A stretch of DNA of 56,378 bases, taken from a virus. Taxonomy: Duplodnaviria > Caudoviricetes. Shown here piece by piece: positions 1 to 56,378 of the stretch (the stretch's first letter is position 1; the number at the start of each line of letters is the position of its first letter). The position numbers and the translations under genes were made by a program. A model generated the notes under the pieces. The model was not told where the DNA came from. It did not search any database and saw only the letters and a list, made by a program, of their open reading frames with translations. Where the stretch lies: IMG/VR virus record IMGVR_UViG_3300017779_000007, positions 1-56,378 of that record. The stretch is one strand, 5' to 3'.

Positions 1-123
1 CATATCGAGGCCGTCGATTGCTTGAAGAAACGGTAACTTCTGCTGGACCCGCTCGACGACATTCCTTGTGATGTTCTGCCTAAGCTGGGCGTTGTCGGCT
101 GCGAAAGCGGCCTGCTGCCGCTC
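1..123 (+). repeat. Terminal direct repeat (left copy), circular-assembly overlap
   Basis: 1-123 is identical to 56256-56378 and lies inside an open reading frame. Confidence 0.95.
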
Positions 124-4394: not shown

Positions 4395-4622
4395 TTTTTT
4401 TCTAAATGGTATATTGTATACACTGCACTCCGTGCAAAAATCCGAGACCTACCGGTGGCGTCTCCCGAACCCCGAACCCCAAATCACTATCATACTATCA
4501 TGATCAACGCATCACGATACGACGATGCGTTAGTAGTGGTGAGGGATCAGGGAAGCGGGATTCATGAATCAGGAATCAGGTGTCGGTGGATCGGAAGGAA
4601 GGCGGGGCATTGCTCTGCATCA

Positions 4623-4846
4623 GGTCCAGTGTCCGGTGTCCAGTGTCCGGTCTGGTGTCCGGTCTGGTGTCCGGTGTCCAGTGTCCGGTCTGGTGTCCGG
4701 TCTGGTGTCCGGTGTCCAGTGTCCGGTCTGGTGTCTGGTGTCTAGTGTCTGGTGTCCAGTGTCCGGTCTGGTGTCCGGTCTGGTGTCCGGTGTCCAGTGT
4801 CCGGTCTGGTGTCTGGTGTCTAGTGTCTGGTGTCTGGTGTCTGGTG
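4623..4846 (+). repeat. Tandem array of GTGTCYR heptamers with GTCTG pentamers
   Basis: Units GTGTCCG/GTGTCCA/GTGTCTG/GTGTCTA/GTCTG; 78-bp higher-order duplication 4674-4751 = 4752-4829. Confidence 0.95.
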
Positions 4847-4849
4847 TTC

Positions 4850-4884
4850 CCCGCTTCCCGCTTCCCGCTTCCCGCTTCCCGCTT
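4850..4884 (+). repeat. (CCCGCTT)5 heptamer array
   Basis: Five perfect copies; reverse complement GGGAAGCGGGA at 4550-4560. Confidence 0.95.
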
Positions 4885-7556: not shown

Positions 7557-7612
7557 TCTTGATACACTGCCCCCTCCAGCCGGAGGGGGCAGTAATCAGG
7601 AATGAGCCTGAA
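7557..7612 (+). ncRNA. Structured intergenic element, family 2, copy B
   Basis: TCTTGAT-aca-CTGCCCCCTCC-agcc-GGAGGGGGCAG-ta-ATCAGG-aatgag-CCTGAA. Confidence 0.7.
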
Positions 7613-7634
7613 ATTAAACCAATAAAGAATAAAG

Positions 7635-7799: not shown

Positions 7800-7855
7800 T
7801 CTTGATACACTGCCCCCTCCAATCGGAGGGGGTAGTAATCAGGAATCAGCCTGAA
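7800..7855 (+). ncRNA. Structured intergenic element, family 2, copy C
   Basis: Near-identical to copy B; differences fall in loops or keep G-U pairing. Confidence 0.7.
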
Positions 7856-7873
7856 CTTAAACCCTAAAAATAA

Positions 7874-13600: not shown

Positions 13601-16600
13601 GGTTCTGGATTAATCGGCGGAAGGCTTCTGGAAGCTCGCCAGCGAACACCTTATTCAGGAACTCCATGATGAAGTTCTGTGGCTTTCCGGTCTCCAGCTC
13701 GTATACAGGAATCTCAAGGAGATCGACCACTGCGGCGAAGTTTATGGTCGAACCTGTCGGCTTGCTGGACGGAGCGGCTGCGGCTGCGGTGGGGGCTGAA
13801 TACAGAGGTAGTTTTACGGTCTCAACTCCCTCGTCCGCTTTTCTAAATATAAGTTCGCGTTGAGAAACACCAACGGACGGTGGGAAGATGCTGTCTTCCT
13901 CCGATTTTTTAATTGGGTCTGTGTTGCCGTCATATGGATCGGCTGCTTTTTTGGGGTTAGGTTTCTTAGCCGAGTAAACTACGTCTTTCCACAGGTTGGA
14001 CTCACTCAGAACGTGGACTACAGGTGTCTCACCCGAAGTGCTGCGTATAGAATACGGGTATGAGTCATGGAAGTCAGTCTCGACGGCTTCGACCTCTCCC
14101 TTCATCGAGAGAACAGCGTATACCCGCCCAGAGGCTTTCTTATCCATTTGCTGAAATTGCTGGAAGGTCTTGACCAGAGGCTCTGCAAAAAGATCTGCCA
14201 TGCCCTGCATGACTGATGCCATTTTGAGGTTACCTGTAGGTATTAAAGATTTATTGTATAGGTTCTTGTCACCAGCCAGAAGGTTAGCTATGTTCAAAGC
14301 CTGATTTTTCTTTTTATCGAAAGCAGCTTTTTCCTTTGGGTTGAACTTCTTCTGAACTTCCGCTGTAGGCAGTTTCATGCTGTCAGCTATTGCTGACGCT
14401 ATCTGAGCGACAAAGGAACCGCGTTGTGGGAACACTGACTCTTCAGGGAGGAGATTCTTTTTCATCTCCTCTATGTTTTTAGCCAGTCCGTCTTTCAGCT
14501 TCAGTTTCCTTGAAAATTCTTTGATGGTGGTCGTCTCGACTCCTGTATCTTTGTCTTTCTTTTTAAGAACTAATCTCTCTTTACTGGCGTTAACAATAGC
14601 ACGGTTTACGACCGCCTCAGTGATCCCATACTTCTTGGGGTTCTTGGCTAGAGTGGCGAACAGGTTGACCGCTCCCGTAGCCATTGTTGTGGAGCTAAAC
14701 ATCTTCTCGATGGGAGCGGACGTGAGAGCCATCAGAATAGTTCCGTTGTTGCGCTTGGATATCTTGTTAAGGTTTTCCGCCATGTTCACGGCGGCGTCCT
14801 TGGTAGATGCCCAGAAATACCCTTGGTCACCGAACATGACTGGGTAGTAAACACCTCCCTTGCCGTCTACGACCTTATCGCCCTCGACCTCCAGTGTGCC
14901 TGCCATCGCGCCGTCAGGTTGGTGGAGCATGACGGCCATTCCCTCAAACTGGTCGAGGGATTGCTGTATCTTAATGTATCCGTTCTTGATCTTCTCGTAA
15001 AACTTCCCGTCCTCTTTGACGTAGATATGTTTAACTATGGGGTCACTCGCACTGGCGATTTCTGGTGGGATCTCGGCGGGTGTAGTAGCACCAGCCACCG
15101 GAGCAGAGTAAAGGATACTGCTTTTACTTTCATCGAACCGCTGGCTAAGTGGGATCACGTTGCCGTTAGCGTCACGGGTGATAGGGTCTGCGGATTTGAG
15201 TTGATCGGGTGACCTTACGACAAGGTGTTCCGTGTCGTGAAAACTGAACGCTTCCTCCAAGTCCTCATAGGTTGTTATGGTCTCGTTCGGGTTGTTCTCA
15301 AGGTAGAGTTCCGCGCCCCCGAGAGCAGAGTCCTTTTTTATCACGAAGTAACCGGATCGTTCATTTTGTCCATCTAGCGACACAGGCTCCCCTTGGTCAA
15401 AATCCCGCTGCTGCTTCTGGGTAGGGAACCCAGCAGGTTCACTAAACACAACCGTATCGAACCCAGAAGGGAAGCCATCCGTCTCCTCTCCACGAGCCAC
15501 CATTTGTTGTGCTGTAACTCGATCAATGGTTCGTCCTTTCTTGACGAAAAGGTCGAGAACCTTGTTGTCGGTCCGCTGATATCTATAGGACGAAAATGTG
15601 TCGGCTTCATTCGATACATGAAAACCGCGAATATTGGTGTCTGGATCAAACTCAGGGATCTCGCCTCGGTCGAATGCGTCGAAGGTTGCTCCAGTTGCGT
15701 GTTTAGTGCGGGTTTCATACCCCGCTGCCTTAGCGCGTCGTTCCACCATCGTCCTCAACTCAAGCCAGTTCTTCTCAGGATCTTTGGCAAGCTCTAGATA
15801 CTCAACGTCTTCTACCGGAGCAGACGCTAAACCAACGAAGTCCTGATTAACGACCTCAAACATTTGGAAAACTTCCGTCGGGTTCTTGGTATCGAACGCC
15901 ATCTTCGTAGGCTGACGGACGAACCCAGCTTCGATAGCTCGCATCTCAATAATCAACTTATTGAGGGCAACATCTGCTGCGGGTCCGATCTGTTCACGCT
16001 TGGCGACCCATCGGTTGATGATCCCCCTAAAGTAACGACCTAGAATTTTAAGTAAGGAAGGCTTGGATTTCCAGAATTGGTTATCATCCTCGGTAGTAAA
16101 GCCCCGTGTGACCTTCTGGAAGTGCATACGAAGTTTCTCTTGTGCCAACCCATACTTAGCTTTTGCGACCACTTGAGGGTCTGACGACTGAAGGCTCACT
16201 ATCGCAGCCGCAAGTCTTGGTTCGTTTCCGACATGGTATTCTTTAGCGATGTCCACGAAGTCCGAGTCAGAAAGACTGTTGATGTAATTCTGAACCTCTC
16301 CGTCGGTCATGGAACTCCAACTGGCACTATGCACTAACTCCTCGTTGATTATAACACCAGCGATTGCGCGTCCGGCGATGTCCCCAACGCCGCCTGTCTG
16401 GCTCAACATAAGAGGGAGGTTGATATATACCGCTGAAGAATCAGACTGCACAAAAGAAGAACTTCCATCGGACTCAGTAACAAATTCTAGTTCCATGCCG
16501 AATGGAATCAGACCTCTGAGATAATTCAGTAGGGGTAATGCTTTAGAGCGGTCTTCCTCTGGGATAAGTGAGAGGAATTTTTCGCGCTCTACCTCGTCTT

Positions 16601-19600
16601 TAAGACGCTTCGATTCAAGACGTTTTTCCTCTGTATCGTCCTGCATCTCGCGCAACGCTTCTCTCCTCTCCGCTTTCCTCTCAGCCATATATTCAGGAGA
16701 GAAAACTGGTGAACTGGATAACGTCGCGTTATTAGCGATTGCCCCAGCCAAAGCTCCGGCGTTGGTAGGCGGACCCTTGCGGGGATTGCTCCCCACGTCG
16801 ATAATATCTCCAAGAGACTCCGCTACTTCTTTAGCAGATCCTATCCCCACATTCGGGAACAACATAGCTATGTTGATAAGGAAGCTATCAAAGGGTGAGG
16901 AGTTGTTAGTTGGTTTTAGATTTTTGAAGTGCTTCTGAACGTCCTCCGACAACAAGAACTGAGCGGTGAACTCGTTAAGATCGACAAGAGCGTTCTCAAG
17001 AGATGGGACGGGTCCGCTGCTTTCTTTTTGCGATTCGTAGGTTTCTTTCGCGAAGTCGAAAACACTGGACAACTGGTTAACTATACCTTGTTTACTTGAG
17101 GGTGGATTTGAAATAGTTCCAGAAATGAATGCGTGGACATACTCCTCAAGTAATGTGTTGACGAGACCTCGACCGTTTCCAGACGTGACATTGATGAACA
17201 CACTGTCCGAGCCGTCTTTTCCCTTAACGTATTTTCCTGCGATGTCGGCTTTTGCTTCGCCCATCACAAACTTAATCTTCTTGATGAAGGCGGTGTCGCG
17301 CAGCAGCAAGGTAGCTACAAATTTATGGGAAGGGATCTTTGAATTTTTAGCGACTTCTTTAAGGGCTTCAATAACACTGTCGGGGTTCCCACTCTCAAGA
17401 CCCAGTCTCTCAATATCAGCCTTGTTCTCAGCCGTAATGACTGCCCTTTCGGCGGCAGAGATGTTAGATCTCGATAGGTGGGTTCGGACTGCTTTGGTTA
17501 AAGCAATCATTGTGTTCTTCGCCTCTTCCGCAGTGATCTCTGTTTCCGCGCCTGCATTGAACTGAGCTTGGAAATCGCTCACAGCGTCAGAGTTCTCGTA
17601 GCTAGCACCGTCTGAGGGGGTCACTAAGCGGACGAGTTGTAGCGCGTTCAGGAAATCTTCGCTGCCGATTAATACTTTGTCCTCCAGAATCTCCACAAGG
17701 CTATTAACAGACGGCCTAGTGTCGCCGTTTCCAGATGAAAGCCATGAAGCGAATATCCCGAACAGGTCTTTAGAACTCGCGTTCTCAACCATGTCTTCCA
17801 TCTCAGGATCTTCCAATACGTCTTCAAGAATAACCTTGACGATTCCCTTGCGTAAGTCTGGGCTAGTGTTTACGGTATTAACCGCTTTTTTCATCGCCCC
17901 AGATACTGTGTTACTTATATCTTGTGGGGAAGCGAAGTCGCCTACAGGGTTTTCACCGAAGTTAAAAACCCAACTACTTACTTTAGGGTTCTTGAATTGA
18001 TCGGGAGTTATATCGAACGGAAGGGTAGAGGCCGCTCTCTGTTGTCTAAGGGAGGTGGCTTTTTCTTGCTGATTCTTAAATTCGTTCGCGGCTTTTTTAA
18101 GTAGCGTATCGAAGGTCGGCGTTGTGTTATTAGCGAAGTCTGGGTTGTTCAAGAGTTTCTGCTCTACGAACAATCCGAGAATCGTTTCTCCCGTAAGCTC
18201 TTTGTTAGATTCTACTTTAATGAACGGGAGTAGTTTTTGAGCCGCTTGATCTACATTCTTAGATCCCGTCTGGGCTACCAGCTCATCGAAGGGAGTGGTA
18301 GGGTTGGTTCCTTCTCCGAACGCTTCTACTTTTGCGCGAAGACTAAACAACTGTGCGTTAAATAAGAATTCTTGTTTAGCTGACTCAAATGCCACCATGC
18401 GGAACTCCTCGTTAAGCTCCCCGTCGTTGGCTTCAAGGAGGGCTTGGGCGTTGCGATTCGTTTCGTCTCCGGTCTTCTCTAGCTCAAGGGCGAACCTATT
18501 GATTTTTCTTTTGATCGACGTAGTATTAGAAAAGTTTCCATCAGTAATTGGGCTTCCATTTTTGTCAAAGTCTGGAACACCTTCAGGTAAGGTCGCAGGC
18601 TTGAAACGGATACTAGCTATAGCAGAAGCTCTCGTATTGTTTGGCCCAATCGAACTTACGCCCCTCGCGTTAGTGACCTTAGACTCTAGGAGAGTGCCGT
18701 CGGCAGTAGGTCCGACCACGTCACTAACCATCTCATTTTTAATTCGGATAGCGGGGTTGAGGTTTGCTCTATTGAAACTACGAGGAACCTTAACGGTTTT
18801 ACCAGCCCTCAACATCTCAATAATAGAGATCGGGTCGTTGTCGAACACGCCATTACCTCTATCATCAACGAAGAATTTAACTGGCTGGGTAACGGTCTTA
18901 CCGGATACGGGATCGAAGTAAGTCCTGAAAGGTCTCTTCTCATTATCAGGGTCGAGCTTCGCGTTCTTTGGGGGAGCGAGTTTAGGGTAAGCTGTATAAA
19001 CAGCAGAAGACACAAACTCTGACGCGGACTGGCGAGACGAGTCAGGAGGCATAGGTAAACCGTAGTTTACGTTGGGGTCAGGATTAATCGGAAACCCATT
19101 ACCCATCGCGAAGCCAATAAGCCTGTTAGCTTTCTCCTCTGCGTCAGGCCCACTAAAGGGAGACTCTTCATACCTAAATGTATTGGGTGACGGCCTTGAA
19201 GAATACCTCTTGGATTTAGTTGGGTCGAATCCACGGACGCTGTTGTTAGCGGAACTTATGTTCGTTCTGGACTCGCCTTGAAGGGTGACGCCAGCAGATT
19301 CTGCGTTAGCCTGTTCTTGAGTAAAGTCGATATAAGGTCCGGTGTAGTCCTTAATTTCTCTAGGGGATTTACGACCGTAATCGAAAGGAGTCTCTAGAAC
19401 TGTGACGGGTTCACTATTTCTAACGGAGACGCTCTGCTGGTTTCTGATGTTCTCTAAAGCAATTTCAACGTCGAGTGGGCTAGAATCGTTCAGGGACTGC
19501 AAGAACACCACCGGATCTACCTTCTGGTCAGTAAGTGCGAAATCAGGAGTAGTAGGTGACTGCGCTGCAACTTCAAGGTTTTGTTCCTTTTGCGAAATGG

Positions 19601-22418
19601 CTGCGCTCTCCTGCTCAAGCTCTATTCTCCGTTGTTCGCGAAGGGCGACCTCGGCTTCCCGCTCCTCCTCCTTTTTAGGTAGGGTCGATTCGTCGCTAAG
19701 TTTAGATATCTCTTGGGCGATCTCCTTACTTCTTTTGGCGTTTTCTGTTCTTAGTAATGACTGCTCAGTAACAGTGGATGTTCCTTCTGAGGGGGTTGGT
19801 GCTAGTTCAGCCGCAGCCTCGGCTGCACCACGACTTTGGGCGCGGGTCGTAATTATCTGACGAACCTGTTGGGCGGTGAGTGGGCTACCAGTTCCTTCAA
19901 GTTCAGAAGAAACTTGTTCAGCGAACTCATTCGCCATCCGAATACGACTTTCTCGCTGATCCATCGGAGTATAACCTACGAATCTTGCACCGGCCTGAAT
20001 AGTGGGGACACCGCCACCGAGAATACCGCCAACTTGTGCGGCGTGCCACACCTGCGTCATCCTCTCAAGCATCGGCGTGTCCTGATTCAGTGCTACGTCT
20101 TCAACGAATGAATTAACTAACTGATCGAGACCTTCTTCCAAACTTTCATCGACTGCATTTTTTGCGATCTTCTTCCCAAGAGCAAAAGCCCCATACTTCT
20201 TGATGGAGGCATTCATCACGGTTTTCATTGCTCCCGCGACGAGCGTATCAGAGATTCCCGACGTGTTGCCCATCGCTTGGAAAACCGCTTTAGATTCTCT
20301 AAAGGTCATGCCTTTAAGCAAGGCGTCCTCAACACCTCCGCGACCTATCATACTGAAGCCTGCGGTAATTGCACCTGTGATCGCACCAGAGGTTAGGGCG
20401 AATCCTAACGCCCTATCGTGGGCTTCATCTTCGCTTAGTTCTGGGTCTTTGCGTAGCTGGTTATAGAGCGAGGCGTAAGTCATCGCGCCACTACGAGTAG
20501 CTGCTGGAACGAACCCCGCTACCCCTATATTAAACTTACTAGAAGCTACTTTGTTAAATGCTTCGATGGCTTCGACGGTCTTGGCGCGACCTCCTTTTTC
20601 TAACGACTCCCTGATCAAGACATTAGCCGCCTTGTCTGCCACTTCTTTATAACCCTGTTTCGTGCTGGCTCTAAGGACATTACTGGTAAGTGCTTTAGCG
20701 AATCCCTTGGCGGTGAGCTGCGCTCCACCTTTTACAGTAGATCTCAAAGCTAAGTAACCCGCACCAAGAGTGCCACCGGAAACTGTAGCTAAAGCAGTCG
20801 TAGCGGCTATATCCACGATAAGGGGCGCAACGCTTTCGGACACGTCTTGAAACAAGCCATACTGCTCACCGAAAATTTGGGCAACCTCGCGGCGGTCCGA
20901 TTGTCTCTGAGCAGTATTAGCGAGACCGTCTTTGGCCCAGTCTGCCCCCATAATAGCGGGAGCGGCATACACAAGAGTGGCGACAGAATCCCAGACAGAG
21001 TAAGCAATTCCCTTGGCACTGTCAGCGAACTCATTGAAGTTCTCGTCCTTAGCGACGAAATCGTCGAAGATGTCTAGGTCATCTCGTCCGGCCTGCCTGC
21101 CATCTATAAGGGCTTTCGCCCAGTCATCGCCGACGGCGGACTCAGACAAAAGCTTGCTGTAACTCGCGAAGTTTTGTTTGAGAACATCGACTCGTTTCTC
21201 GGCAAAAAGTTTTTTCTGCTGGGCAGTAAGTTCAGGATGCGCGGCAAGAGTGTTAATCATGTCCTCTTCACGGGCAAATACTGCGGGGTTCAGGACTGGA
21301 CCAAGAGCGGTCTTGTAAAGGTTCTTACCCGCTTCAGACGGATCTTGATGCAGCTTAAACGTCCCGCGTCTAGCCCCCTCATGGATAACATGGGCCTCGT
21401 AAGCGTCGCGGACGTCTTCGGCCTTATAATTAGCCCCAGAACTGTTCAGCTTATCGGTGATATACTCAACCGTATTGTCAAAGGATTGTCGGCTAGCGAT
21501 ATAAACTCTTTTTTTCTTGTCGTTACTCTCCTCTGATTCAACCCCAACGGCTGTCATCAGATCGCTCAGTCCTCGCGTTAGGGATTGCGTCGTTGCATCC
21601 CAAGCATTCTGACTTTCTCTGGCGAGTTGAAGGGTATGTCCGGTGACGTGTTCCGCAACTGAGGAGTCCTGTTGGGCCAACTCAGCGATGCTTTCAGAGA
21701 TCTCTGCGATCTGCTTGAATTTGTAAAGTTTGATGTCGAGACCAGCGACAGGAGAAAGAAGTGCTTGAGCAGCCAGACCGTCTTTAAACGACACACCTCC
21801 GATCTTGGAGGCTTTGATCGCCTGATTTACGGTCATGTTCTCGGCGGCGTCACCGACTAATAGTTCGCGCTCGCCAGTTTCATTAGTGACGTAAGCCAAC
21901 GGAATCTGGTTACTCTCAACCAGATTTCTCTTAACCTCGTCAAATCGGCGATTAACAACTTCTTCAGACTTTAGTTTAAGACCAGCTATTTTATCTTGGT
22001 AAGGCTGGACAGTTCCACCAGCGGCGACGACTTTCTCGCCTGCCTTATACTCGGTGAGGGTCATCCAGTCTTCGTCGTCACTGTTCAGTCCGGCGCGAAC
22101 ATACTCAAACTTTTCCTCAAACGATGGCTCCTTGGTGGCCGTAAGAGCTTGAATAGCTTCTTCGTCTACCACACCGAGGTCAGCTAATTTAGAATTCAGT
22201 GATCCACTAATCTCTCCTTCGACACTAGGGGTGTAAGCCCCCTGTTCAAGGTAGCCCTCACGGACGTAATCCGAATACTGGACGTAGCTCTGAGGGTCAG
22301 CTTCGGTTAATTGATTCTCCTCTGACCAAACAGAAAAGGGTTTAAGTTCGGGTGGTTTAGGAGCCTCTGTGATCAGAGACTTATCAAAGTCGGTAAGGGA
22401 TGGATTCAAATCAGTCAT
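10653..22418 (-). CDS. Giant (3921 aa) polyvalent / internal virion ejection protein
   Basis: Gly/Ala-rich hydrophobic N-terminal region typical of ejected proteins, two zincin-like EExxH motifs, ART-PolyVal-like module at about 15105-15800. Confidence 0.75.
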   Translation of the reverse strand: MTDLNPSLTDFDKSLITEAPKPPELKPFSVWSEENQLTEADPQSYVQYSDYVREGYLEQGAYTPSVEGEISGSLNSKLADLGVVDEEAIQALTATKEPSFEEKFEYVRAGLNSDDEDWMTLTEYKAGEKVVAAGGTVQPYQDKIAGLKLKSEEVVNRRFDEVKRNLVESNQIPLAYVTNETGERELLVGDAAENMTVNQAIKASKIGGVSFKDGLAAQALLSPVAGLDIKLYKFKQIAEISESIAELAQQDSSVAEHVTGHTLQLARESQNAWDATTQSLTRGLSDLMTAVGVESEESNDKKKRVYIASRQSFDNTVEYITDKLNSSGANYKAEDVRDAYEAHVIHEGARRGTFKLHQDPSEAGKNLYKTALGPVLNPAVFAREEDMINTLAAHPELTAQQKKLFAEKRVDVLKQNFASYSKLLSESAVGDDWAKALIDGRQAGRDDLDIFDDFVAKDENFNEFADSAKGIAYSVWDSVATLVYAAPAIMGADWAKDGLANTAQRQSDRREVAQIFGEQYGLFQDVSESVAPLIVDIAATTALATVSGGTLGAGYLALRSTVKGGAQLTAKGFAKALTSNVLRASTKQGYKEVADKAANVLIRESLEKGGRAKTVEAIEAFNKVASSKFNIGVAGFVPAATRSGAMTYASLYNQLRKDPELSEDEAHDRALGFALTSGAITGAITAGFSMIGRGGVEDALLKGMTFRESKAVFQAMGNTSGISDTLVAGAMKTVMNASIKKYGAFALGKKIAKNAVDESLEEGLDQLVNSFVEDVALNQDTPMLERMTQVWHAAQVGGILGGGVPTIQAGARFVGYTPMDQRESRIRMANEFAEQVSSELEGTGSPLTAQQVRQIITTRAQSRGAAEAAAELAPTPSEGTSTVTEQSLLRTENAKRSKEIAQEISKLSDESTLPKKEEEREAEVALREQRRIELEQESAAISQKEQNLEVAAQSPTTPDFALTDQKVDPVVFLQSLNDSSPLDVEIALENIRNQQSVSVRNSEPVTVLETPFDYGRKSPREIKDYTGPYIDFTQEQANAESAGVTLQGESRTNISSANNSVRGFDPTKSKRYSSRPSPNTFRYEESPFSGPDAEEKANRLIGFAMGNGFPINPDPNVNYGLPMPPDSSRQSASEFVSSAVYTAYPKLAPPKNAKLDPDNEKRPFRTYFDPVSGKTVTQPVKFFVDDRGNGVFDNDPISIIEMLRAGKTVKVPRSFNRANLNPAIRIKNEMVSDVVGPTADGTLLESKVTNARGVSSIGPNNTRASAIASIRFKPATLPEGVPDFDKNGSPITDGNFSNTTSIKRKINRFALELEKTGDETNRNAQALLEANDGELNEEFRMVAFESAKQEFLFNAQLFSLRAKVEAFGEGTNPTTPFDELVAQTGSKNVDQAAQKLLPFIKVESNKELTGETILGLFVEQKLLNNPDFANNTTPTFDTLLKKAANEFKNQQEKATSLRQQRAASTLPFDITPDQFKNPKVSSWVFNFGENPVGDFASPQDISNTVSGAMKKAVNTVNTSPDLRKGIVKVILEDVLEDPEMEDMVENASSKDLFGIFASWLSSGNGDTRPSVNSLVEILEDKVLIGSEDFLNALQLVRLVTPSDGASYENSDAVSDFQAQFNAGAETEITAEEAKNTMIALTKAVRTHLSRSNISAAERAVITAENKADIERLGLESGNPDSVIEALKEVAKNSKIPSHKFVATLLLRDTAFIKKIKFVMGEAKADIAGKYVKGKDGSDSVFINVTSGNGRGLVNTLLEEYVHAFISGTISNPPSSKQGIVNQLSSVFDFAKETYESQKESSGPVPSLENALVDLNEFTAQFLLSEDVQKHFKNLKPTNNSSPFDSFLINIAMLFPNVGIGSAKEVAESLGDIIDVGSNPRKGPPTNAGALAGAIANNATLSSSPVFSPEYMAERKAERREALREMQDDTEEKRLESKRLKDEVEREKFLSLIPEEDRSKALPLLNYLRGLIPFGMELEFVTESDGSSSFVQSDSSAVYINLPLMLSQTGGVGDIAGRAIAGVIINEELVHSASWSSMTDGEVQNYINSLSDSDFVDIAKEYHVGNEPRLAAAIVSLQSSDPQVVAKAKYGLAQEKLRMHFQKVTRGFTTEDDNQFWKSKPSLLKILGRYFRGIINRWVAKREQIGPAADVALNKLIIEMRAIEAGFVRQPTKMAFDTKNPTEVFQMFEVVNQDFVGLASAPVEDVEYLELAKDPEKNWLELRTMVERRAKAAGYETRTKHATGATFDAFDRGEIPEFDPDTNIRGFHVSNEADTFSSYRYQRTDNKVLDLFVKKGRTIDRVTAQQMVARGEETDGFPSGFDTVVFSEPAGFPTQKQQRDFDQGEPVSLDGQNERSGYFVIKKDSALGGAELYLENNPNETITTYEDLEEAFSFHDTEHLVVRSPDQLKSADPITRDANGNVIPLSQRFDESKSSILYSAPVAGATTPAEIPPEIASASDPIVKHIYVKEDGKFYEKIKNGYIKIQQSLDQFEGMAVMLHQPDGAMAGTLEVEGDKVVDGKGGVYYPVMFGDQGYFWASTKDAAVNMAENLNKISKRNNGTILMALTSAPIEKMFSSTTMATGAVNLFATLAKNPKKYGITEAVVNRAIVNASKERLVLKKKDKDTGVETTTIKEFSRKLKLKDGLAKNIEEMKKNLLPEESVFPQRGSFVAQIASAIADSMKLPTAEVQKKFNPKEKAAFDKKKNQALNIANLLAGDKNLYNKSLIPTGNLKMASVMQGMADLFAEPLVKTFQQFQQMDKKASGRVYAVLSMKGEVEAVETDFHDSYPYSIRSTSGETPVVHVLSESNLWKDVVYSAKKPNPKKAADPYDGNTDPIKKSEEDSIFPPSVGVSQRELIFRKADEGVETVKLPLYSAPTAAAAAPSSKPTGSTINFAAVVDLLEIPVYELETGKPQNFIMEFLNKVFAGELPEAFRRLIQNRDAYKRLTEANVVAYKQEMDKLIEENYGGYEYAPMDLIALAQGHYTGNIVTEEVLKDIDKDYEAAHADAEKKRKVGLITEEEADSLKGLAHNARTEATDKAYEEAITSREADRDAALRELAKESPKLAAHIIDIRQRLIIPLQKKLVKSGLDDNIGVKISETGGVYITRSYKMFTDSSYLQKVREDPNYQVVRDEAMRFFNKQFKDKKFEELVEGGMDKSRAEVEARILLEKENQSYPHKSYAQEVLNTFLMRYDEGGRDSTTASPKHYKMIEDNLKRRKDLPVEIRNLLGEIGSEAGTDLILRTYSTVATLASQQAFLNQLVAFGKETGVMVTVEEKLATKENRVKYANFVAARSGAPSKNDPLSGMQVDPEFKKLLDTTLNDSFSMDYADTAEKAVKGAVGLAANLSGKAMAAKTLGSIGFYLRNGIGNLLFGTSQGFLRYDKMIAEMAKGTFGVLNPFNEGEIDPELNELIGLNIKGDELRAGVMRDLLNGRITPDGIRKQIEDLGEKTKLNKATKALAIIEKKAQDLSAALDAAYKVAYYNHELAILKEAQAADTSTVEDGKVRVNNLANMSDTQIKRLAARKVVMTSQAYSQAPPAVAAYTKSGLGLLFAPFIRFKMEVPRIVINTYKLASEEIASGNPVLVRRGKTRMIWMTGTIGVLSSALPMILAALSGIGDEEDEAMRASIPDYLRGHTFFYYRWNGELKSVDLTYVNPYSLLVDPFLRAYENIRSGEFTEAGAALALGLVRDQYLDDQILAGAVSEARRNLNPSTGKPIWNKGADGPVEAGSKILGYIAKEAYAPRLGKDFVEGWSTGSLKGMTLEIMDGAMPARVHDVDLQKQYSRYLLDLNKRYNNVKSGLNAVKRNVPMSDGDVADIIDENIEDRRLLNYELMRINKGFASLGLTNTDLLKGMKDKKLGRDRVALLSKGYMDKPSFKYIIEGLLDPRTDEYGRARAQQVYDHASKLNRYIPVRPITESE

Positions 22419-24766: not shown

Positions 24767-25321
24767 CTAGGTTAAGGTTTTAGCTACGGGCTTCGATTTT
24801 TTCTTTTGAAGGTCGGATTTTACATCCGACAACAGGCCAGCCTTTGAAGTTTTCGACGGTACGCCGCCCACTCCGGTAAAAGCGTTGGAGACAGTGCCAA
24901 ATTTGTAGTTAGGGTCAAATACGTTTAGCGTGGGAGAGCTAGCGTCCGAACTCGACGTATTTGAGGGGGGAGAGCTAGCGTCCGAACTCGACGTATTTGA
25001 GAAGGTGTCCCCCATACCAGTTCTTGCGATTTTCGACGCCCCGCCCCCAACAGGAGAAGACTCGAAAAGACTTTTCGAGTAACTACCAATTTCGTAGTTT
25101 GGGTCTTGCATGGCTTCTAACCTACCGAGACCCGTAGTCTGGTTCATTACATTTTGCGTTGCTTCTGCTGCATTTGTAGGGGCTGCTGGAGCTGCTGCTG
25201 GAGCTGCTGCTGGAGCTGCTGCTGGAGCTGCTGCTGGAGCTGCTGCTGCCGTAGAAGCGGCGTTCTTCTTCGCCTGATTTGACTCCTGTGCTTCTTTTAG
25301 AATTTTTTTTCTATCGGCCAT
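24767..25321 (-). CDS. Low-complexity protein (184 aa), putative internal virion protein
   Basis: (AAAP)n tract from a 12-bp repeat at about 25182-25247; NTSSSDASSP duplicated (36-bp period, 24932-25001). Confidence 0.55.
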   Translation of the reverse strand: MADRKKILKEAQESNQAKKNAASTAAAAPAAAPAAAPAAAPAAAPAAPTNAAEATQNVMNQTTGLGRLEAMQDPNYEIGSYSKSLFESSPVGGGASKIARTGMGDTFSNTSSSDASSPPSNTSSSDASSPTLNVFDPNYKFGTVSNAFTGVGGVPSKTSKAGLLSDVKSDLQKKKSKPVAKTLT

Positions 25322-53058: not shown

Positions 53059-53103
53059 AAATAAGAACCCCGCTGCCCGTTTTAGAGACAGGCAACGGGG
53101 TTC
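53059..53103 (-). terminator. Intrinsic terminator after capsid-associated gene
   Basis: GAACCCCGTTGCCTGT-loop-ACGGGCAGCGGGGTTC-TTATTT on minus strand. Confidence 0.65.
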
Positions 53104-53419: not shown

Positions 53420-54739
53420 TTAAGCAGCAGGAGTGCTGGAGTCACGCTTGAAGAGGATCACATAACCAAACTCAGTCTTGATGGGCTTGGTTGCGCTGGC
53501 GAGAACACCACGGAAGAATCCGATGGAACCGTCAGGGTTGGTGATCTCGTTAGCGATGTTCTTCCAGTCAAACTTACCACGGTAGTTGACAGGATCGAAA
53601 CTGATTCCGTTAGATCCGCTAAGTGGATTAGGGATCTGGGCTTCGCAAACTTCAGGGTGAAGAACGAATGCTGCCTCATAGGAAGCTGCTTCGTAAGAGG
53701 GGTTCGGGGTAGCTACTCCGCCTGATACGCTGTAAGGCTCAACCAAGTTGAGTGTGTTGTCAGCGGTATCGCCGGAGGCACTACTACCGTCGGTGTCGGT
53801 GTCCTGCTCAAAGCGAGGAGCGAGATCGTCAACGAGGTGGTAGAATCCGCGGAAGGACTTCTCGATACCAAGTGGGGCAATCAGGTCACTGACCTTAGCG
53901 TTGTTGTAGCGAACATCATCGCGGAATCCGGCCTCAGTCTGGAGCTGGTAAGAAGCTTCAGAAGAAAGGACGAGAGCGAAGACTGGGCGACCGTTCTCAC
54001 GACCGTAAGCATTGCTACCAGCACCTGCGCGGACCTGTCGGAAATAGACTTTGTCCAGAATCGCGTTGGAGATGTTTGCAGTAATATTGGTCGCTGTGAT
54101 CGTCTGATCGACAGTTGCAGTGCCTTCCTTGCTGTCAGCAAAGCTTGAGCTAGCACTCTTACAGATAACGAGGTTATCAGAGACTTTATCAAACTCTTCG
54201 CGGTAGCGGGTCTCCCAAGTGTTGCGGGTGACCTGAGTCATGATGTCCATGATGGCGCGAAGCTGCTCCTGACGGTGTGCGGCGAAGCGTAGGTCTTCAA
54301 GCGAGATGCGTGGAGACTCGATTACGGCACGTTGCAGGTTGAACTTTTTAAGTTGCTTACCGAACTGGACGAAAGCGCGTTTGTCGGCAGAACCAGTTCC
54401 GCGACCGCCCTGAACATCGTCAGCGGCGTCGTCGAGAGGCTGTGCGTTTGCGCCTGACAGAGATGTGTTAAACTGGTTTCCTCCAGAAGAGAGGGTTCCA
54501 AGGTCGGACCAGTTAGCCCCTACAGTGCTTCCGCCAGCCTCAGTGGTGGCGATTGCACGGTCATAAACGAGCGTGGTCTGTTGGTAGCCCATTCCATCTG
54601 CGAAGGAGGTCTGCTTAGTGAGATCCAACCAAGGCGAGGTGTGGAGGGTACGTGAGTAGATGTCGCTGCCGATGCGGTTAGCTTCTTCAGCGAGAATAGT
54701 GTTTACGGCAGTGATGCCAGCGTCAAGATTAAAAGACAT
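53420..54739 (-). CDS. Major capsid protein (about 439 aa from ATG 54739)
   Basis: Size, position downstream of portal and scaffold, own promoter, downstream hairpin and terminator. Confidence 0.75.
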   Translation of the reverse strand: MSFNLDAGITAVNTILAEEANRIGSDIYSRTLHTSPWLDLTKQTSFADGMGYQQTTLVYDRAIATTEAGGSTVGANWSDLGTLSSGGNQFNTSLSGANAQPLDDAADDVQGGRGTGSADKRAFVQFGKQLKKFNLQRAVIESPRISLEDLRFAAHRQEQLRAIMDIMTQVTRNTWETRYREEFDKVSDNLVICKSASSSFADSKEGTATVDQTITATNITANISNAILDKVYFRQVRAGAGSNAYGRENGRPVFALVLSSEASYQLQTEAGFRDDVRYNNAKVSDLIAPLGIEKSFRGFYHLVDDLAPRFEQDTDTDGSSASGDTADNTLNLVEPYSVSGGVATPNPSYEAASYEAAFVLHPEVCEAQIPNPLSGSNGISFDPVNYRGKFDWKNIANEITNPDGSIGFFRGVLASATKPIKTEFGYVILFKRDSSTPAA

Positions 54740-54811
54740 TGTTCTAAATAAATAAGGGTTTGCGCTTCCGGCCAACGGGGTCGGAAACTAAAAGAGTTTA
54801 GGACGAACCTC

Positions 54812-54896
54812 TTAGAACTATTCAATGGCTAGAGCAACCGGAGTTTCTATGTGCTGTATCAGTTGTTTTTAGAACTATTCAAAGGCTAGAGCAACC
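54812..54896 (-). ncRNA. Tandem 28-nt structured motif in capsid 5' UTR
   Basis: GGTTGCTCTAGCCWTTGAATAGTTCTAA at 54896-54869 and 54839-54812, each enclosed by a different closing stem. Confidence 0.65.
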
Positions 54897-54910
54897 TAAC
54901 TGATAAGCGA

Positions 54911-54938
54911 ATCTTAACACTGTATACCAATCTGTCAA
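54911..54938 (-). promoter_or_regulatory. Sigma70-type capsid promoter
   Basis: CCCCG-TTGACA-16 bp-(TGt)TAAGAT. Confidence 0.6.
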
Positions 54939-54943
54939 CGGGG

Positions 54944-55795
54944 TTACTTCGTCAACGAGGTCAACCCGTCGTAGGGTTTTTCCATTAGCTTTCGCAGATC
55001 ATCGGCTTTCTTGTCGTTAGGAGAGCGGACTGAAGACGCACCTGACCGAAGTTCTTTTTGGAGATCGCCTTGATCTGGGTTGGCAATCGCTCTGTCGGCA
55101 CTCTCTGCCCGTTCTTCGGGGGACATCCTTGCTTTACGCAGATCTGCCGTGCGGCCTCTATTTCGTTTATACATCCTAAACTTTGCCGCTTCACGCTGCT
55201 CCTCTTCAGACGGGCCGAAGAACTTGTCATACGCGAGTCCTCCGAGGGTTTTTGCGGTATCGACCGCTGCGTCGCCAGCCGCATAAATAGTTCCTGCGGG
55301 GTCGAGGAAGCCTTGCCCCATGTTTTGTAAGTTTCCTCCCACAGTTCCCCCTCTTTTATACATTTCTTCCGCTTCGTCCCTAGCTTTTTGCCGTTCCTCC
55401 TCCGAGTTAGCTAGCATAGCAGATCTATACCCTAGTGCAGCTAATTCAGCAGGCGGGGCGAACTTTAAAAATCTCGACGCGGTACTCCCCGCTTTTTGAA
55501 GAGCTGGGCTGTATTTAGCGGCTTGATTGTAAAGGTTTTTGGCAACATTATCGGGGTTCAACTTTGAGAGGTTCTCTTGGAGAACGCCAAGAGCAGGTTT
55601 GAATCTACCAGCATTGTCTACGGCTTTTTCTAAAAGTGCTTTGGGAACTGTAGTGGTGTTCGCGGTGGGTCTTGAGAAGGATACCCCCGTCACGTCCGAA
55701 GCAAGCCCCCCAAGGGATTCATCGGCTTTCTCCGCAGCCACTCGGATATCCTCAAGCGTCTGGCTAAGGACTTTTTTCTTGTTTTTCTCACTCAT
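54944..55795 (-). CDS. Hypothetical protein between scaffold and capsid (283 aa)
   Basis: Long Ala/Gly/Lys-rich ORF with its own promoter. Confidence 0.7.
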   Translation of the reverse strand: MSEKNKKKVLSQTLEDIRVAAEKADESLGGLASDVTGVSFSRPTANTTTVPKALLEKAVDNAGRFKPALGVLQENLSKLNPDNVAKNLYNQAAKYSPALQKAGSTASRFLKFAPPAELAALGYRSAMLANSEEERQKARDEAEEMYKRGGTVGGNLQNMGQGFLDPAGTIYAAGDAAVDTAKTLGGLAYDKFFGPSEEEQREAAKFRMYKRNRGRTADLRKARMSPEERAESADRAIANPDQGDLQKELRSGASSVRSPNDKKADDLRKLMEKPYDGLTSLTK

Positions 55796-55815
55796 CTAAG
55801 TAAACCGGTAAATCG

Positions 55816-55844
55816 AGGGTATCATTTGCTGGTTATAATGTCAA
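55816..55844 (-). promoter_or_regulatory. Sigma70-type promoter
   Basis: CCCCG-TTGACA-17 bp-TACCCT; same CCCCGTTGACA as capsid promoter. Confidence 0.55.
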
Positions 55845-55925
55845 CGGGGTCGCTCAGACGCGAGGGCCGCCAATATCAGTAGCGAAATAATGGCGAGTAG
55901 GGATGCCTCGTAATAATCCATAACT

Positions 55926-55979: not shown

Positions 55980-56258
55980 TTACACCGCGCCTAAAGCAGC
56001 GTTCACGCGCTCCTCAAAGCTCGCGTTGTCCGATACTCCGGCTCTGGCCGCTGGTGCTTTCGTCTGACCAGACATCGCTGGCTCCGCTTCCTCATATTCA
56101 GCGAGGCGGTCGGTCAGCGACTCGACTTCCTTACGCATCTCCAGATACTGCCTTACAACAGTCGGGAACACTTGAGCGGATACCGCGTTGTAGGCATGGT
56201 CAACAGGGTGCAGGACAGAGGGATCGGTCTCGGACGCCTTCTGCTGGATAGCAGACAT
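55980..56258 (-). CDS. Putative scaffolding protein, 3' part
   Basis: In frame with 903..1 through the terminal overlap. Confidence 0.7.
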   Translation of the reverse strand: MSAIQQKASETDPSVLHPVDHAYNAVSAQVFPTVVRQYLEMRKEVESLTDRLAEYEEAEPAMSGQTKAPAARAGVSDNASFEERVNAALGAV

Positions 56259-56378
56259 ATCGAGGCCGTCGATTGCTTGAAGAAACGGTAACTTCTGCTG
56301 GACCCGCTCGACGACATTCCTTGTGATGTTCTGCCTAAGCTGGGCGTTGTCGGCTGCGAAAGCGGCCTGCTGCCGCTC
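56256..56378 (+). repeat. Terminal direct repeat (right copy)
   Basis: Identical to 1-123. Confidence 0.95.

What the first reader, a model, noticed from the sequence alone, without database searches (positions are those of the whole stretch)
54740..54905. Tandem structured RNA motif in the long 5' UTR of the major capsid gene
Seen: unlike the leaderless genes, the capsid has a leader of about 165 nt with two 28-nt cores, GGUUGCUCUAGCC(U/A)UUGAAUAGUUCUAA (27/28 identical, 29 nt apart). The first is closed by UAUCAGUU/AACUGAUA (54905-54898/54864-54857), the second by an unrelated GAAACUC/GAGGUUC helix. Each core can form GGUUG-CUC-UAGCC and GAA-UAG-UUC mini-hairpins. Inference: same core with different closing stems points to a tandem multi-way-junction aptamer or protein-binding operator controlling capsid synthesis, or a structural RNA.
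Basis: partly seen in the sequence, partly recalled or inferred. Interest (0 to 1): 0.75.

Follow-up and report, generated by a model that had tools for sequence, protein, structure and literature searches.

The report
Tandem pseudoknot leader of capsid gene
The long leader in front of this uncultured aquatic phage's capsid gene carries two copies of a small, very strongly conserved folded RNA (a stem-closed pseudoknot) that matches no catalogued RNA family and most likely controls how much capsid protein is made.

Summary
Two 28-nt cores (54896-54869 and 54839-54812, minus strand, 27/28 identical) lie between a sigma-70-type promoter (54938-54911) and the ATG (54739) of an HK97-like capsid gene. 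They are the only two copies in this complete 56-kb phage genome. The same element lies upstream of every evaluable capsid homologue among uncultured phage contigs (65 of 65). It persists even where the proteins are only 36-39% identical to a distant family member. Each unit is a variable closing helix (P1) around an H-type pseudoknot: S1 GGY:RCC, L1 NGCU, a 3-bp S2, an A-rich L3 and an invariant UUCUA tail. P1, S2 and S1 all show compensatory changes. Some lineages insert a GNRA-capped hairpin in L3. This means an RNA, not a DNA operator or CRISPR repeat. Rfam 15 has no match. Function is inferred only. I favour a cis-acting leader domain that docks a conserved protein or the 30S subunit to set capsid mRNA translation and stability (about 0.45). 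Rivals are a riboswitch, a bare nuclease barrier, an RNA-polymerase modifier and a ribozyme. It is a new RNA family of a known kind.

The parts
54911..54938 (-). Sigma-70-type promoter TTGACA (54938-54933), 16-nt spacer, TAAGAT (54916-54911). Predicted start is about 54904.
   Evidence: 10 of 12, TG before the -10. TTGACA at 16-18 nt from a TAnnnT hexamer scores at least 9 of 12 upstream of the first element in 50 of 98 distinct upstream regions. It is one of only 6 sites scoring at least 10 of 12 in the window.
54857..54905 (-). Unit A: closing helix P1a (54905-54898 with 54864-54857) around core A.
   Evidence: R2 match of 43.6 bits. P1 statistics.
54870..54896 (-). Core A pseudoknot. S1 is 54896-54894 with 54886-54884. 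L1 UGCU is 54893-54890. S2 is 54889-54887 with 54877-54875. L3 is 54883-54878. The UUCUA tail is 54874-54870.
54848..54853 (-). CACAUA linker just 5' of P1b. It is part of the CACAUAGA block seen before the second element in many lineages.
   Evidence: by inspection; not tested statistically.
54805..54847 (-). Unit B: closing helix P1b (54847-54841 with 54811-54805, 6 of 7 pairs) around core B.
   Evidence: R2 match of 48.9 bits. In this clade P1b is weak: the constrained fold did not choose it.
54813..54839 (-). Core B pseudoknot. S1 is 54839-54837 with 54829-54827. L1 is 54836-54833. S2 is 54832-54830 with 54820-54818. L3 is 54826-54821. The tail is 54817-54813.
54765..54787 (-). Third hairpin UUUCCGACC-CCGUU-GGCCGGAAG (-11.4 kcal/mol, folded with 5 flanking nt). 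There is no U-run after it.
   Evidence: Most lineages have a strong hairpin of unrelated sequence at this place.
54740..54764 (-). Unstructured U/A-rich stretch before the start codon, with no Shine-Dalgarno sequence.
53420..54739 (-). Capsid-like gene (439 aa, ATG at 54739), the only gene ever found downstream of the motif.
53065..53103 (-). Strong terminator-like hairpin (16 pairs) that closes the capsid transcription unit.
   Evidence: A comparable hairpin plus T-run lies within 700 nt of the capsid stop in 31 of 35 lineages.

Best explanation
SHOWN. The leader of the capsid mRNA holds two autonomous copies of a folded RNA unit. Each unit is a closing helix of free sequence (P1) around a compact H-type pseudoknot. 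The pseudoknot parts are S1 GGY:RCC; L1 of 4-5 nt ending in invariant GCU; S2 of 3 bp and free sequence; L3, which is A-rich or carries an inserted hairpin; and an invariant 3' tail UUCUA. P1a begins at or next to the predicted transcription start. The two units and a third hairpin are followed by an unstructured U/A-rich stretch and the AUG. The unit ends in a strong terminator.

INFERRED. The element acts in cis, after transcription, on capsid expression. The 5'-terminal helix shields the mRNA 5' end from 5'-end-dependent decay. The two invariant pseudoknots are docking sites for a conserved macromolecule that sets the rate of translation initiation on the open stretch downstream. There are two candidate partners. 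One is the 30S subunit or ribosomal protein S1, which would make the element a recruitment or standby enhancer. The other is a phage assembly protein, the capsid or scaffold protein, which would give autogenous feedback. I cannot choose between them. Each 3+3-bp pseudoknot is too weak to be stable alone. That fits a fold locked by its own tertiary contacts (the GCU loop with the UUCUA tail) plus a bound partner.
For: Structure:
- P1. True flank pairs fold at -6.24 kcal/mol and 95% of 110 have at least 5 cross pairs, against -2.11 kcal/mol and 41% for 540 permuted flank pairs.
- P1 strand. The sense strand folds better than the antisense (Wilcoxon p 1.4e-5), with 89 G.U among 895 pairs and 47 clusters of different P1 sequences.
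- P1 on the model-fitted alignment. 7 of 7 P1 pairs show changes on both sides and 74.4% of cells are paired, against 17-36% for the whole structure when the partners are slid. For the whole structure, 0 of 500 shuffles reach the observed counts.
- S2. 46 of 48 anchor-defined instances are fully paired, with 10 triplet types. 98.5% of cells are paired, 26 cells changed on both sides, and 0 of 500 shuffles reach this.
- S1. In the long forms the third pair is C-G 9, U-A 4, other 1. Across clades the types are GGU/GCC 36, GGC/GCC 8, GGU/ACC 6, GCC/GGC 2, CUU/AGG 2 and others.
- GNRA-capped hairpins are inserted in L3.

Specificity:
- Only 2 model hits in the whole genome.
- 65 of 65 evaluable canonical cores lie upstream of a capsid homologue, 41-176 nt from its ATG.
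- The motif is kept in capsid homologues only 36-39% identical to L218, including leaders that do have a Shine-Dalgarno sequence.

Placement:
- The promoter is directly upstream. The first paired base of P1a lies at most 9 nt after the -10 hexamer in 42 of 50 lineages with a good promoter.
- An unstructured tail precedes the AUG.
- A strong terminator follows the gene in 31 of 35 lineages.
- RNA-library contigs from two studies bridge the leader and the ORF: record 7 of X18 and record 17 of X20.

Units look independent:
- Core-to-core spacing is 54-81 nt.
- The linkers between P1 and the core vary, 0-4 nt on the 5' side (one outlier of 10) and 0-7 nt on the 3' side.
- There is no expression platform after unit A. 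This fits several docking sites better than a cooperative aptamer pair.

Precedent:
- A 5'-proximal pseudoknot needed for S1 and 30S standby binding on tisB mRNA (PMC7708055, abstract read).
- From my own knowledge, not from a call: autogenous leader operators of T4 gp32 and gp43, post-transcriptional self-control of P22 scaffold protein, and protection of ompA mRNA by a 5'-terminal stem-loop.
Against: - No partner is identified and nothing here measures binding, stability or translation.
- The start region is already unstructured, so a standby site seems unnecessary.
- S1 is not known for sequence-specific recognition of this stringency.
- No HK97-fold capsid protein is known to bind its own mRNA. 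The capsid protein drifts to under 40% identity while the RNA core stays fixed.
- Invariance of loop nucleotides across such divergence is just as typical of riboswitches and ribozymes.
- Some related capsid clades (L180-L189) carry a different structured leader without this motif.
- P1b of the window is weak.
- The single-sequence fold of the leader is not unusual (z -0.70).
- The transcription start is predicted, not mapped.
Confidence: 0.45

Rival explanations
1. Tandem riboswitch. Each pseudoknot is an aptamer for a small molecule or ion, and ligand binding locks S1/S2 and gates capsid translation or mRNA life.
For: The core is a small H-type pseudoknot with invariant loop nucleotides, covarying stems and an A-rich L3. 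From recall, this is the style of the preQ1-I, SAM-II and guanidine-III aptamers. The marginal 3+3-bp stems suggest ligand-dependent folding. The core stays invariant across phages of different base composition and ribosome-binding style, which fits a universal ligand. In a few clades the 3' arm of P1b can instead pair downstream into a short hairpin followed by a U-run.
Against: The only associated gene is a structural one. No conserved terminator or start-site sequestering platform exists. The complement of the tail near the AUG is not enriched: 13 of 60 leaders against 7.9 expected, within the range of composition-matched words. Unit A has no platform of its own. Linkers to P1 and the spacing between units are variable. 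There is no Rfam riboswitch hit.
Confidence: 0.12
2. Purely structural mRNA stabiliser or nuclease barrier. The 5'-terminal helix and two rigid pseudoknots block 5'-end-dependent RNase E entry and scanning, or a 5'-3' exonuclease. No specific partner is needed, and the two copies give redundancy, as with tandem exonuclease-resistant RNAs of flaviviruses.
For: P1a starts at the predicted 5' end. The unit is built for high output, with a perfect -35 and a strong terminator hairpin at the 3' end. The tandem layout is nearly universal: the model finds second copies where the regular expression saw one.
Against: A passive barrier does not need about ten invariant unpaired nucleotides (GCU, UUCUA, the A's of L3) kept while every helix changes sequence. 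The stems are very short. No ring-like fold around the 5' end can be inferred, because P1 lies outside the pseudoknot.
Confidence: 0.15
3. Nascent-RNA modifier of RNA polymerase (works like HK022 put). The two elements bind the transcribing polymerase and make it resistant to pausing or termination.
For: The element sits directly after the promoter, consists of two structured elements, and is invariant among phages of different hosts, as expected if the partner is RNA polymerase. Genes on the same strand continue beyond the terminator.
Against: A very strong terminator hairpin is conserved right after the capsid gene in 31 of 35 lineages. That makes little sense if the leader abolished termination. 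The window has other strong promoter-like sites on the same strand (3454, 25652, 46494) without the motif. So the element is tied to the capsid gene, not to a late operon. No put model or sequence was available for comparison.
Confidence: 0.06
4. Self-cleaving ribozyme or processing signal. Possible forms are a new small pseudoknotted ribozyme, or a T-loop-like tRNA mimic cut by RNase P. Either would trim the leader and leave a protected 5' end.
For: The size, the pseudoknot, about ten invariant unpaired nucleotides and the phage setting resemble small self-cleaving ribozymes (recall). UUCUA directly after a helix fits the five-nucleotide T-loop pattern U-U-C-N-A (recall).
Against: There is no match to hammerhead, twister, pistol, hatchet or HDV models. 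RNA-library contigs run across unit B into the ORF. There is no evidence of a cleavage site. The tail lacks the closing pair of a tRNA T-arm.
Confidence: 0.06
5. DNA-level element: two operator sites for a DNA-binding regulator downstream of the promoter, or a two-repeat CRISPR-like mini-array (28-nt repeats, 29-nt spacer).
For: The repeat and spacer sizes fit a CRISPR array, and direct repeats just downstream of a promoter could be a roadblock operator.
Against: Compensatory changes occur in three helices, G.U pairs favour the sense strand, and hairpins are inserted in L3. None of these has meaning for duplex DNA recognition. The 'spacer' is conserved among relatives and supplies the closing-helix arms. 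Copy number and position relative to promoter and ATG are fixed.
Confidence: 0.02

Closest known systems
T4 gene 32 mRNA leader (5' pseudoknot plus unstructured A/U-rich operator; autogenous translational repression)
   Same: Both are phage mRNA leaders with an H-type pseudoknot near the 5' end, followed by an unstructured A/U-rich stretch up to the start codon. In both the element occurs only in front of one gene.
   Different: There is no sequence relation. Here two pseudoknots are each closed by a helix. The gene encodes a capsid protein, not a single-strand-binding protein, and no repressor is known. The comparison with T4 rests on recall, plus the listing and abstract of PMC3014915 and PMC535899.
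tisB +42 mRNA 5' pseudoknot (S1/30S standby site, E. coli)
   Same: A 5'-proximal pseudoknot upstream of a single-stranded region, acting at a distance on initiation. The abstract says pseudoknots often bind S1 with high affinity (PMC7708055).
   Different: In tisB the ribosome-binding site is sequestered and needs standby. Here the start region is open. The motif is tandem, far more conserved, and has no sequence likeness.
preQ1-I and other small H-type pseudoknot riboswitches
   Same: A minimal H-type pseudoknot with an A-rich third loop and invariant loop nucleotides in a 5' leader.
   Different: No Rfam hit even at E up to 10. The pseudoknot is enclosed by an outer helix, it does not contain the ribosome-binding site, and the gene context is not metabolic.
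HK022 put RNAs
   Same: Two structured elements transcribed immediately after a promoter and acting in cis (position only).
   Different: A strong terminator is kept right behind the gene, and the motif is gene-specific. No sequence or structure comparison was possible.
Tandem exoribonuclease-resistant RNAs (flavivirus xrRNA1/2)
   Same: Tandem, pseudoknotted, compact units in an untranslated region.
   Different: Those lie in 3' UTRs of eukaryotic RNA viruses and form a ring around their own 5' end. Here an outer helix encloses the pseudoknot and no such topology can be inferred.
Candidate structured RNAs predicted from IMG/VR (PMC10690425, 10,006 candidates)
   Same: Same data source and the same kind of object. 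That paper mentions candidates upstream of a major capsid protein family (PHA00201) (passages read).
   Different: This capsid has no family hit.

Membership tests
Any Rfam 15 family (including preQ1, SAM-II/V, fluoride and guanidine riboswitches; hammerhead, twister, pistol, hatchet and HDV ribozymes) | Covariance-model match at or near the family's gathering score | tested here: not met
   0 matches at gathering score on the whole window. 0 at E up to 10 on 54650-55000. 0 at E up to 1 on seven diverged loci.
CRISPR array | Spacers are unrelated to each other and to the flanks, and vary between related genomes | tested here: not met
   The inter-repeat segment is conserved in relatives and pairs with the flanks to form P1a and P1b.
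CRISPR array | Direct repeats of 23-47 nt with spacers of similar length | tested here: met
   28-nt repeats 29 nt apart in the window. Among relatives, however, start-to-start spacing ranges from 54 to 81 nt.
H-type RNA pseudoknot (structural class) | Two stems in which the 3' strand of stem 1 lies in the loop of stem 2, both supported by compensatory change | tested here: met
   S2. S1: with one covarying pair in the long forms and strand-flipped variants GCC/GGC and CUU/AGG in distant clades. S1 support is weaker than S2 support.
Riboswitch (functional class) | Expression platform: alternative pairing that links the aptamer to a terminator or to the start site | tested here: not met
   There is no conserved terminator or sequestering helix between unit B and the AUG in 26 leaders. 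The complement of the tail is not enriched.
Riboswitch (functional class) | Binding of a small-molecule ligand | not testable with these tools
   Needs in-line probing or ITC.
T4 gene 32-type autogenous leader operator | The product of the downstream gene binds the leader and represses its own translation | not testable with these tools
   Only the architecture (a pseudoknot followed by an open A/U-rich stretch) is met.
HK022 put-type polymerase-modifying RNA | Promotes read-through of downstream terminators in cis | tested here: inconclusive
   The position after the promoter fits. A conserved strong terminator directly after the gene (31 of 35) and gene specificity argue against it. No assay was possible.
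5'-terminal stem-loop mRNA stabiliser (ompA type) | Helix beginning within a few nucleotides of the transcript's 5' end | tested here: inconclusive
   The first paired base of P1a lies at most 9 nt after the -10 hexamer in 42 of 50 lineages. The start site itself is predicted, not mapped.
HK97-fold major capsid protein (the downstream gene) | Fold likeness to solved major capsid proteins | tested here: met
   The best Foldseek matches listed are all phage major capsid proteins, but the scores are weak (best E 1.7e-3, TM 0.23-0.28) and the model has pLDDT 58.9. No Pfam or PHROG hit.

The most novel reading that the evidence does not exclude
The two pseudoknots are aptamers of an undescribed riboswitch class, or an undescribed small self-cleaving ribozyme class. 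In that case a widespread group of uncultured marine and freshwater phages would gate synthesis of their major capsid protein on a cellular small-molecule signal, for example a nucleotide-derived alarm or energy signal. That would be direct metabolite control of a virion structural gene.
Probability: 0.15. Interest if true: 0.9.

Novelty: new member of a known kind. Interest (0 to 1): 0.6.

Why it matters
This is a well-supported new structured RNA family. It has three covarying helices and more than 100 distinct examples. It is tied to a single gene family, the major capsid gene of a large uncultured phage lineage found in seawater, freshwater and viral metagenome assemblies. Its core is kept almost letter for letter while the capsid protein diverges to under 40% identity and every helix changes sequence, so it must contact something conserved. 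Post-transcriptional control of capsid synthesis in tailed DNA phages is little explored. A defined 45-nt module with clear compensatory-mutation tests makes the question directly testable. It could also give a compact RNA part (a stabiliser, enhancer or sensor) for use in Shine-Dalgarno-poor hosts. If the partner turns out to be a small molecule, or the RNA is catalytic, it would be a new riboswitch or ribozyme class.

Tried and rejected
1. Rejected. The inner two pairs of GGUUG-CUC-UAGCC conflict with the covarying S2 and are broken in L203 (CUC, CUU).

2. Long-range pairing of the UUCUA tail with a UAGAA word near the AUG, which is present in the window. It occurs in 13 of 60 non-redundant leaders against 7.9 expected, no more than composition-matched words such as TAAAG (14). 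Rejected.

3. A transcription attenuator after unit B. Only short, weak hairpins with U-runs occur, in a few clades, and none is conserved. Rejected.

4. The single-sequence fold of the leader has z -0.70. Uninformative.

5. Cultured-phage relatives: no tblastn or blastn match in 50,697 phage records.

6. Host. A motif scan of 185,579 species genomes gave 7 stretches. Five are phage-like contigs with a capsid homologue, binned into MAGs labelled Opitutae (2), Verrucomicrobiales, Blastopirellula and Acidimicrobiaceae. Two are chance matches without a capsid gene. This is only a weak host hint.

7. RNA runs. No RNA-library contig covers the window upstream of about 54920. A part without cover proves nothing. 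Contig ends at 54868 (+18 loose letters) and 54855 differ between runs and say nothing about a start or a cut.

8. Loose-pattern hits. 45 of 118 pattern-found loci matched only the loose pattern and hold no capsid homologue. 3 more (L023, L036, L070) have odd long gaps and no capsid homologue. All 48 were treated as chance. 5 canonical loci end 133-225 nt after the motif and could not be evaluated.

9. Resemblances recalled from memory were not tested and are not claimed. These were the 23S GTPase-centre RNA, the tRNA T-arm and the 3' end of 16S rRNA.

10. The giant 3921-aa ORF has no Pfam hit above cut-off.

11. Paper searches found no description of this motif. The core sequence on either strand occurs in 0 papers. 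The supplementary tables of PMC10690425, which may list it, are closed.

Full report
**What is there.**
The window is a complete phage-like genome. Bases 1-123 repeat at 56256-56378. It encodes DNA polymerase, helicase, exonuclease, primase, large terminase and endolysin. It has no relative among 50,697 deposited phage records.

On the minus strand a sigma-70-type promoter, TTGACA-16-TAAGAT (54938-54911, 10 of 12), is followed by two 28-nt cores at 54896-54869 and 54839-54812. They are 27/28 identical and 29 nt apart. A mismatch-tolerant search finds 2 hits against 0.00 expected. The ATG of a 439-aa ORF follows at 54739.

The ORF has no Pfam or PHROG hit. A 35-sequence AlphaFold model (pLDDT 58.9) finds only phage major capsid proteins among its best Foldseek matches (best E 1.7e-3; Pan3, A4, N4, CUS-3, P22, lambda). 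'Capsid gene' is therefore likely but weakly shown.

**Distribution.**
- A protein-based scan of IMG/VR gave 21 capsid homologues (54-82% identity). The regular expression found 17 with the tandem core, 3 with one diverged core and 1 (L021) with none. L021 was later read as a variant.
- 73 of the 118 loci fit a canonical core. Of these, 65 hold a capsid homologue in the locus, 5 end 133-225 nt after the motif, and 3 have odd long gaps and no capsid gene.
- The other 45 loci fit only the loose pattern and none holds a capsid homologue.
- Where the ATG could be located, the last core lies 41-176 nt upstream of it, and core-to-core spacing is 54-81 nt.
- A covariance model of the core finds only the two leader copies in the whole 56-kb genome (38.4 and 37.4 bits; next best 11).
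- A model with P1 finds 134 copies in 74 sources. It finds second copies in loci where the regular expression saw one.
- Further protein scans reached a second, diverged group of contigs (L147-L176). These have one full element, carrying a hairpin inserted in L3, plus a diverged second structure.
- They also reached capsid homologues only 36-39% identical to L218. These still carry the element (in tandem in L226), some with a clear Shine-Dalgarno sequence.
- Another clade (L180-L189) has a different structured leader.

**Structure.**
*P1.* With the core held unpaired, the true 5' and 3' flanks of 110 distinct instances fold at -6.24 kcal/mol, and 95% have at least 5 cross pairs. For 540 permuted flank pairs the values are -2.11 kcal/mol and 41%. 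The sense strand folds better than the antisense (p 1.4e-5). There are 89 G.U among 895 pairs and 47 clusters of different helix sequences.

On the model-fitted alignment, all 7 P1 pairs show changes on both sides and 74.4% of cells are paired. For the whole structure, 17-36% of cells pair when the partners are slid, and 288 cells are changed on both sides against 111 in shuffles (0 of 500 reach the observed value). That alignment leans towards the structure. The permutation test does not.

The linkers between P1 and the core vary: 0-4 nt on the 5' side (one outlier of 10) and 0-7 nt on the 3' side.

*S2.* This is the triplet right after the invariant GCU and the triplet right before the invariant UUCUA. 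Instances were defined by anchors only, in loci found by protein. 46 of 48 pair fully, with ten triplet types: CUA/UAG, CUG/CAG, CCA/UGG, CCG/CGG, UCG/CGA, CUC/GAG, CUU/AAG, UUG/CAA, UUA/UGA and CUG/UAG. The two exceptions are a mis-anchored match (L169) and a coding-region match (L021). On a plain MAFFT alignment, 98.5% of cells pair, 3 of 3 pairs covary, 0 of 500 shuffles reach the observed value, and slid controls give 3-32%.

*S1.* This pairs GGY at the 5' end of the core with RCC in the S2 loop. In the long forms the third pair is C-G 9, U-A 4, other 1. In short forms it is U.G 104, U-A 3, C-G 1. Across all clades 57 of 66 anchor-defined instances (several of the rest are cross-element artefacts) give 3 of 3 pairs. 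The types are GGU/GCC 36, GGC/GCC 8, GGU/ACC 6, GCC/GGC 2, GUU/GAC 2, CUU/AGG 2 and GCU/AGC 1. A letter-shuffle control gives 18%. The partner-swap control is uninformative (72%), because most instances share one type.

S1 is therefore supported, but less strongly than S2 and P1.

Together these make an H-type pseudoknot: S1, L1 (N)NGCU, S2, 0-1 nt, S1', L3, S2', and then UUCUA. L3 is A-rich, or holds an inserted hairpin capped by GAAA or GCAA in several lineages.

Of GGUUG/UAGCC, only the outer three pairs (S1) are compatible with S2.

**Context.**
- TTGACA with a TAnnnT hexamer at 16-18 nt precedes the first element in many lineages (50 of 98 distinct upstream regions score at least 9 of 12).
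- In 42 of those 50, the first paired base of P1a lies at most 9 nt after the -10 hexamer. The helix therefore sits at the predicted 5' end.
- After unit B, most lineages have a third strong hairpin of unrelated sequence and then 25-40 unstructured U/A-rich nucleotides up to the AUG.
- Most genes of the window, not only the capsid gene, lack a Shine-Dalgarno sequence.
- A 13-17-bp hairpin with a T-run lies within 700 nt of the capsid stop in 31 of 35 lineages. In the window it is at 53103-53065.
- The window has only six promoter-like sites scoring at least 10 of 12. Four are on the minus strand, and only the capsid one has the motif.
- Contigs from two RNA libraries bridge the leader and the ORF: X18 record 7 (54696-54779) and X20 record 17 (54624-54855). 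DNA carry-over cannot be excluded, and these contigs come from relatives.

**What it is not.**
- Rfam 15 gives nothing at gathering score on the window, at E up to 10 on the leader, or at E up to 1 on seven diverged loci.
- A DNA operator or a CRISPR-like mini-array is excluded by the compensatory changes, the strand asymmetry, the inserted hairpins, the conserved 'spacer' that forms P1, and the fixed copy number and position.

**How it most likely works.**
Only the structure and the placement are shown. I infer a cis-acting, post-transcriptional element specific to capsid expression. P1a gives a base-paired 5' end. By established knowledge of 5'-terminal stem-loops (recalled), this protects against 5'-end-dependent decay. 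The two pseudoknots have about ten invariant unpaired nucleotides, stems too short to be stable alone, free spacing and no platform of their own. They look like independent docking sites for a conserved partner.

The two partners I consider most likely are these:
- The 30S subunit or protein S1. The precedent is the tisB 5' pseudoknot (PMC7708055, abstract).
- A phage assembly protein acting in feedback. The precedents (T4 gp32/gp43 and P22 scaffold) are recalled.

I put this class at 0.45. The rivals are a riboswitch (0.12), a bare nuclease barrier (0.15), a polymerase modifier (0.06), a ribozyme or processing signal (0.06) and a DNA element (0.02). The remainder is unassigned. The conserved terminator and the gene specificity weigh against the polymerase reading. 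The lack of any conserved platform and the structural-gene context weigh against a riboswitch. The invariance of the loop nucleotides keeps the riboswitch and ribozyme readings alive.

**Novelty.**
No paper in the searched library holds the core sequence or describes such a leader. A 2023 survey predicted 10,006 structured RNA candidates from the same virus collection (PMC10690425, passages read). I rate it a new member of a known kind, namely structured cis-acting leader RNAs. The evidence for its fold is unusually strong, and its function is open.

Noticed in passing
window 1-123 and 56256-56378: An identical 123-base terminal overlap. The window is a complete circular or terminally redundant phage genome of 56255 bases.
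   Followed up: no
window 55842-55850, 54936-54944, 54773-54781, 53093-53101 (minus strand): The 9-mer ACCCCGTTG occurs 4 times in the genome, against 0.36 expected (0 of 100 shuffles reach 4). All four are on the minus strand, within 2.8 kb around the capsid unit. Two overlap -35 TTGACA boxes, one is in leader hairpin 3 and one is in the terminator arm. Unexplained.
   Followed up: partly
window 54944-55850: A 283-aa ORF with its own copy of the ACCCCGTTGACA promoter segment sits between the scaffold-like gene and the capsid promoter. In L005-L015 the scaffold-like ORF ends directly at the capsid promoter. This looks like a gene inserted with duplication of the -35 region.
   Followed up: partly
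window 10653-22418 (minus): A single 3921-aa ORF, a fifth of the genome, with no Pfam hit above cut-off. The only match is a weak one to ART-PolyVal (17.1 bits, cut-off 31.2).
   Followed up: partly
window 4586-4855: A long array of 12/14-nt units (GTGTCCGGT / GTCTGGT...), 16 overlapping copies of a 78-nt pattern.
   Followed up: no
window 7557-7620 and 7800-7863: Two 64-nt repeats, 92% identical, each with a G+C-rich inverted repeat (CCCCCTCC...GGAGGGGG), 243 nt apart.
   Followed up: no
window 24932-24965 and 24968-25001: An exact 34-nt tandem duplication inside the ORF 24767-25321.
   Followed up: no
L028, L072, L104, L125, L136, L038, L017 (between units A and B): Many marine lineages, but not the window, carry a mini-hairpin UGGGCUNNGUUCCA between the two units. 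It repeats the GCU and GUUC signatures of the core without S2 or L3. L227 has GCUUUGUUCUA. This suggests that GCU and UUCUA face each other at the base of S2.
   Followed up: partly
L180-L189, upstream of the capsid homologue: This clade has a different structured leader, with a hairpin GNCC-UGCCARU-GGNC and a CUGCGCUA block, and lacks the pseudoknot motif.
   Followed up: no
L150-L163, L175, L208, L219 (diverged clade): The TTGACA box lies inside a 17-bp inverted repeat (AGCTTCGTACAAATTTG ... CGATTTGTACGAAGCT). This could be an operator or the terminator of the upstream gene. The second leader structure there (UGAAGC...GCUUCA around AAGGCCYAUGCGCC) can pair in two exclusive ways.
   Followed up: no
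L140, L141, L143, L144, L146 (genome contigs): Phage contigs of this lineage (capsid 51-81% identical, tandem motif present) are binned into MAGs labelled Acidimicrobiaceae, Opitutae (two contigs), Blastopirellula and Verrucomicrobiales. This is a weak hint at the host, or simply mis-binning.
   Followed up: partly
window, all gene starts: Almost no gene has a Shine-Dalgarno sequence within 15 nt of its start. This suggests a host that initiates translation without one.
   Followed up: no
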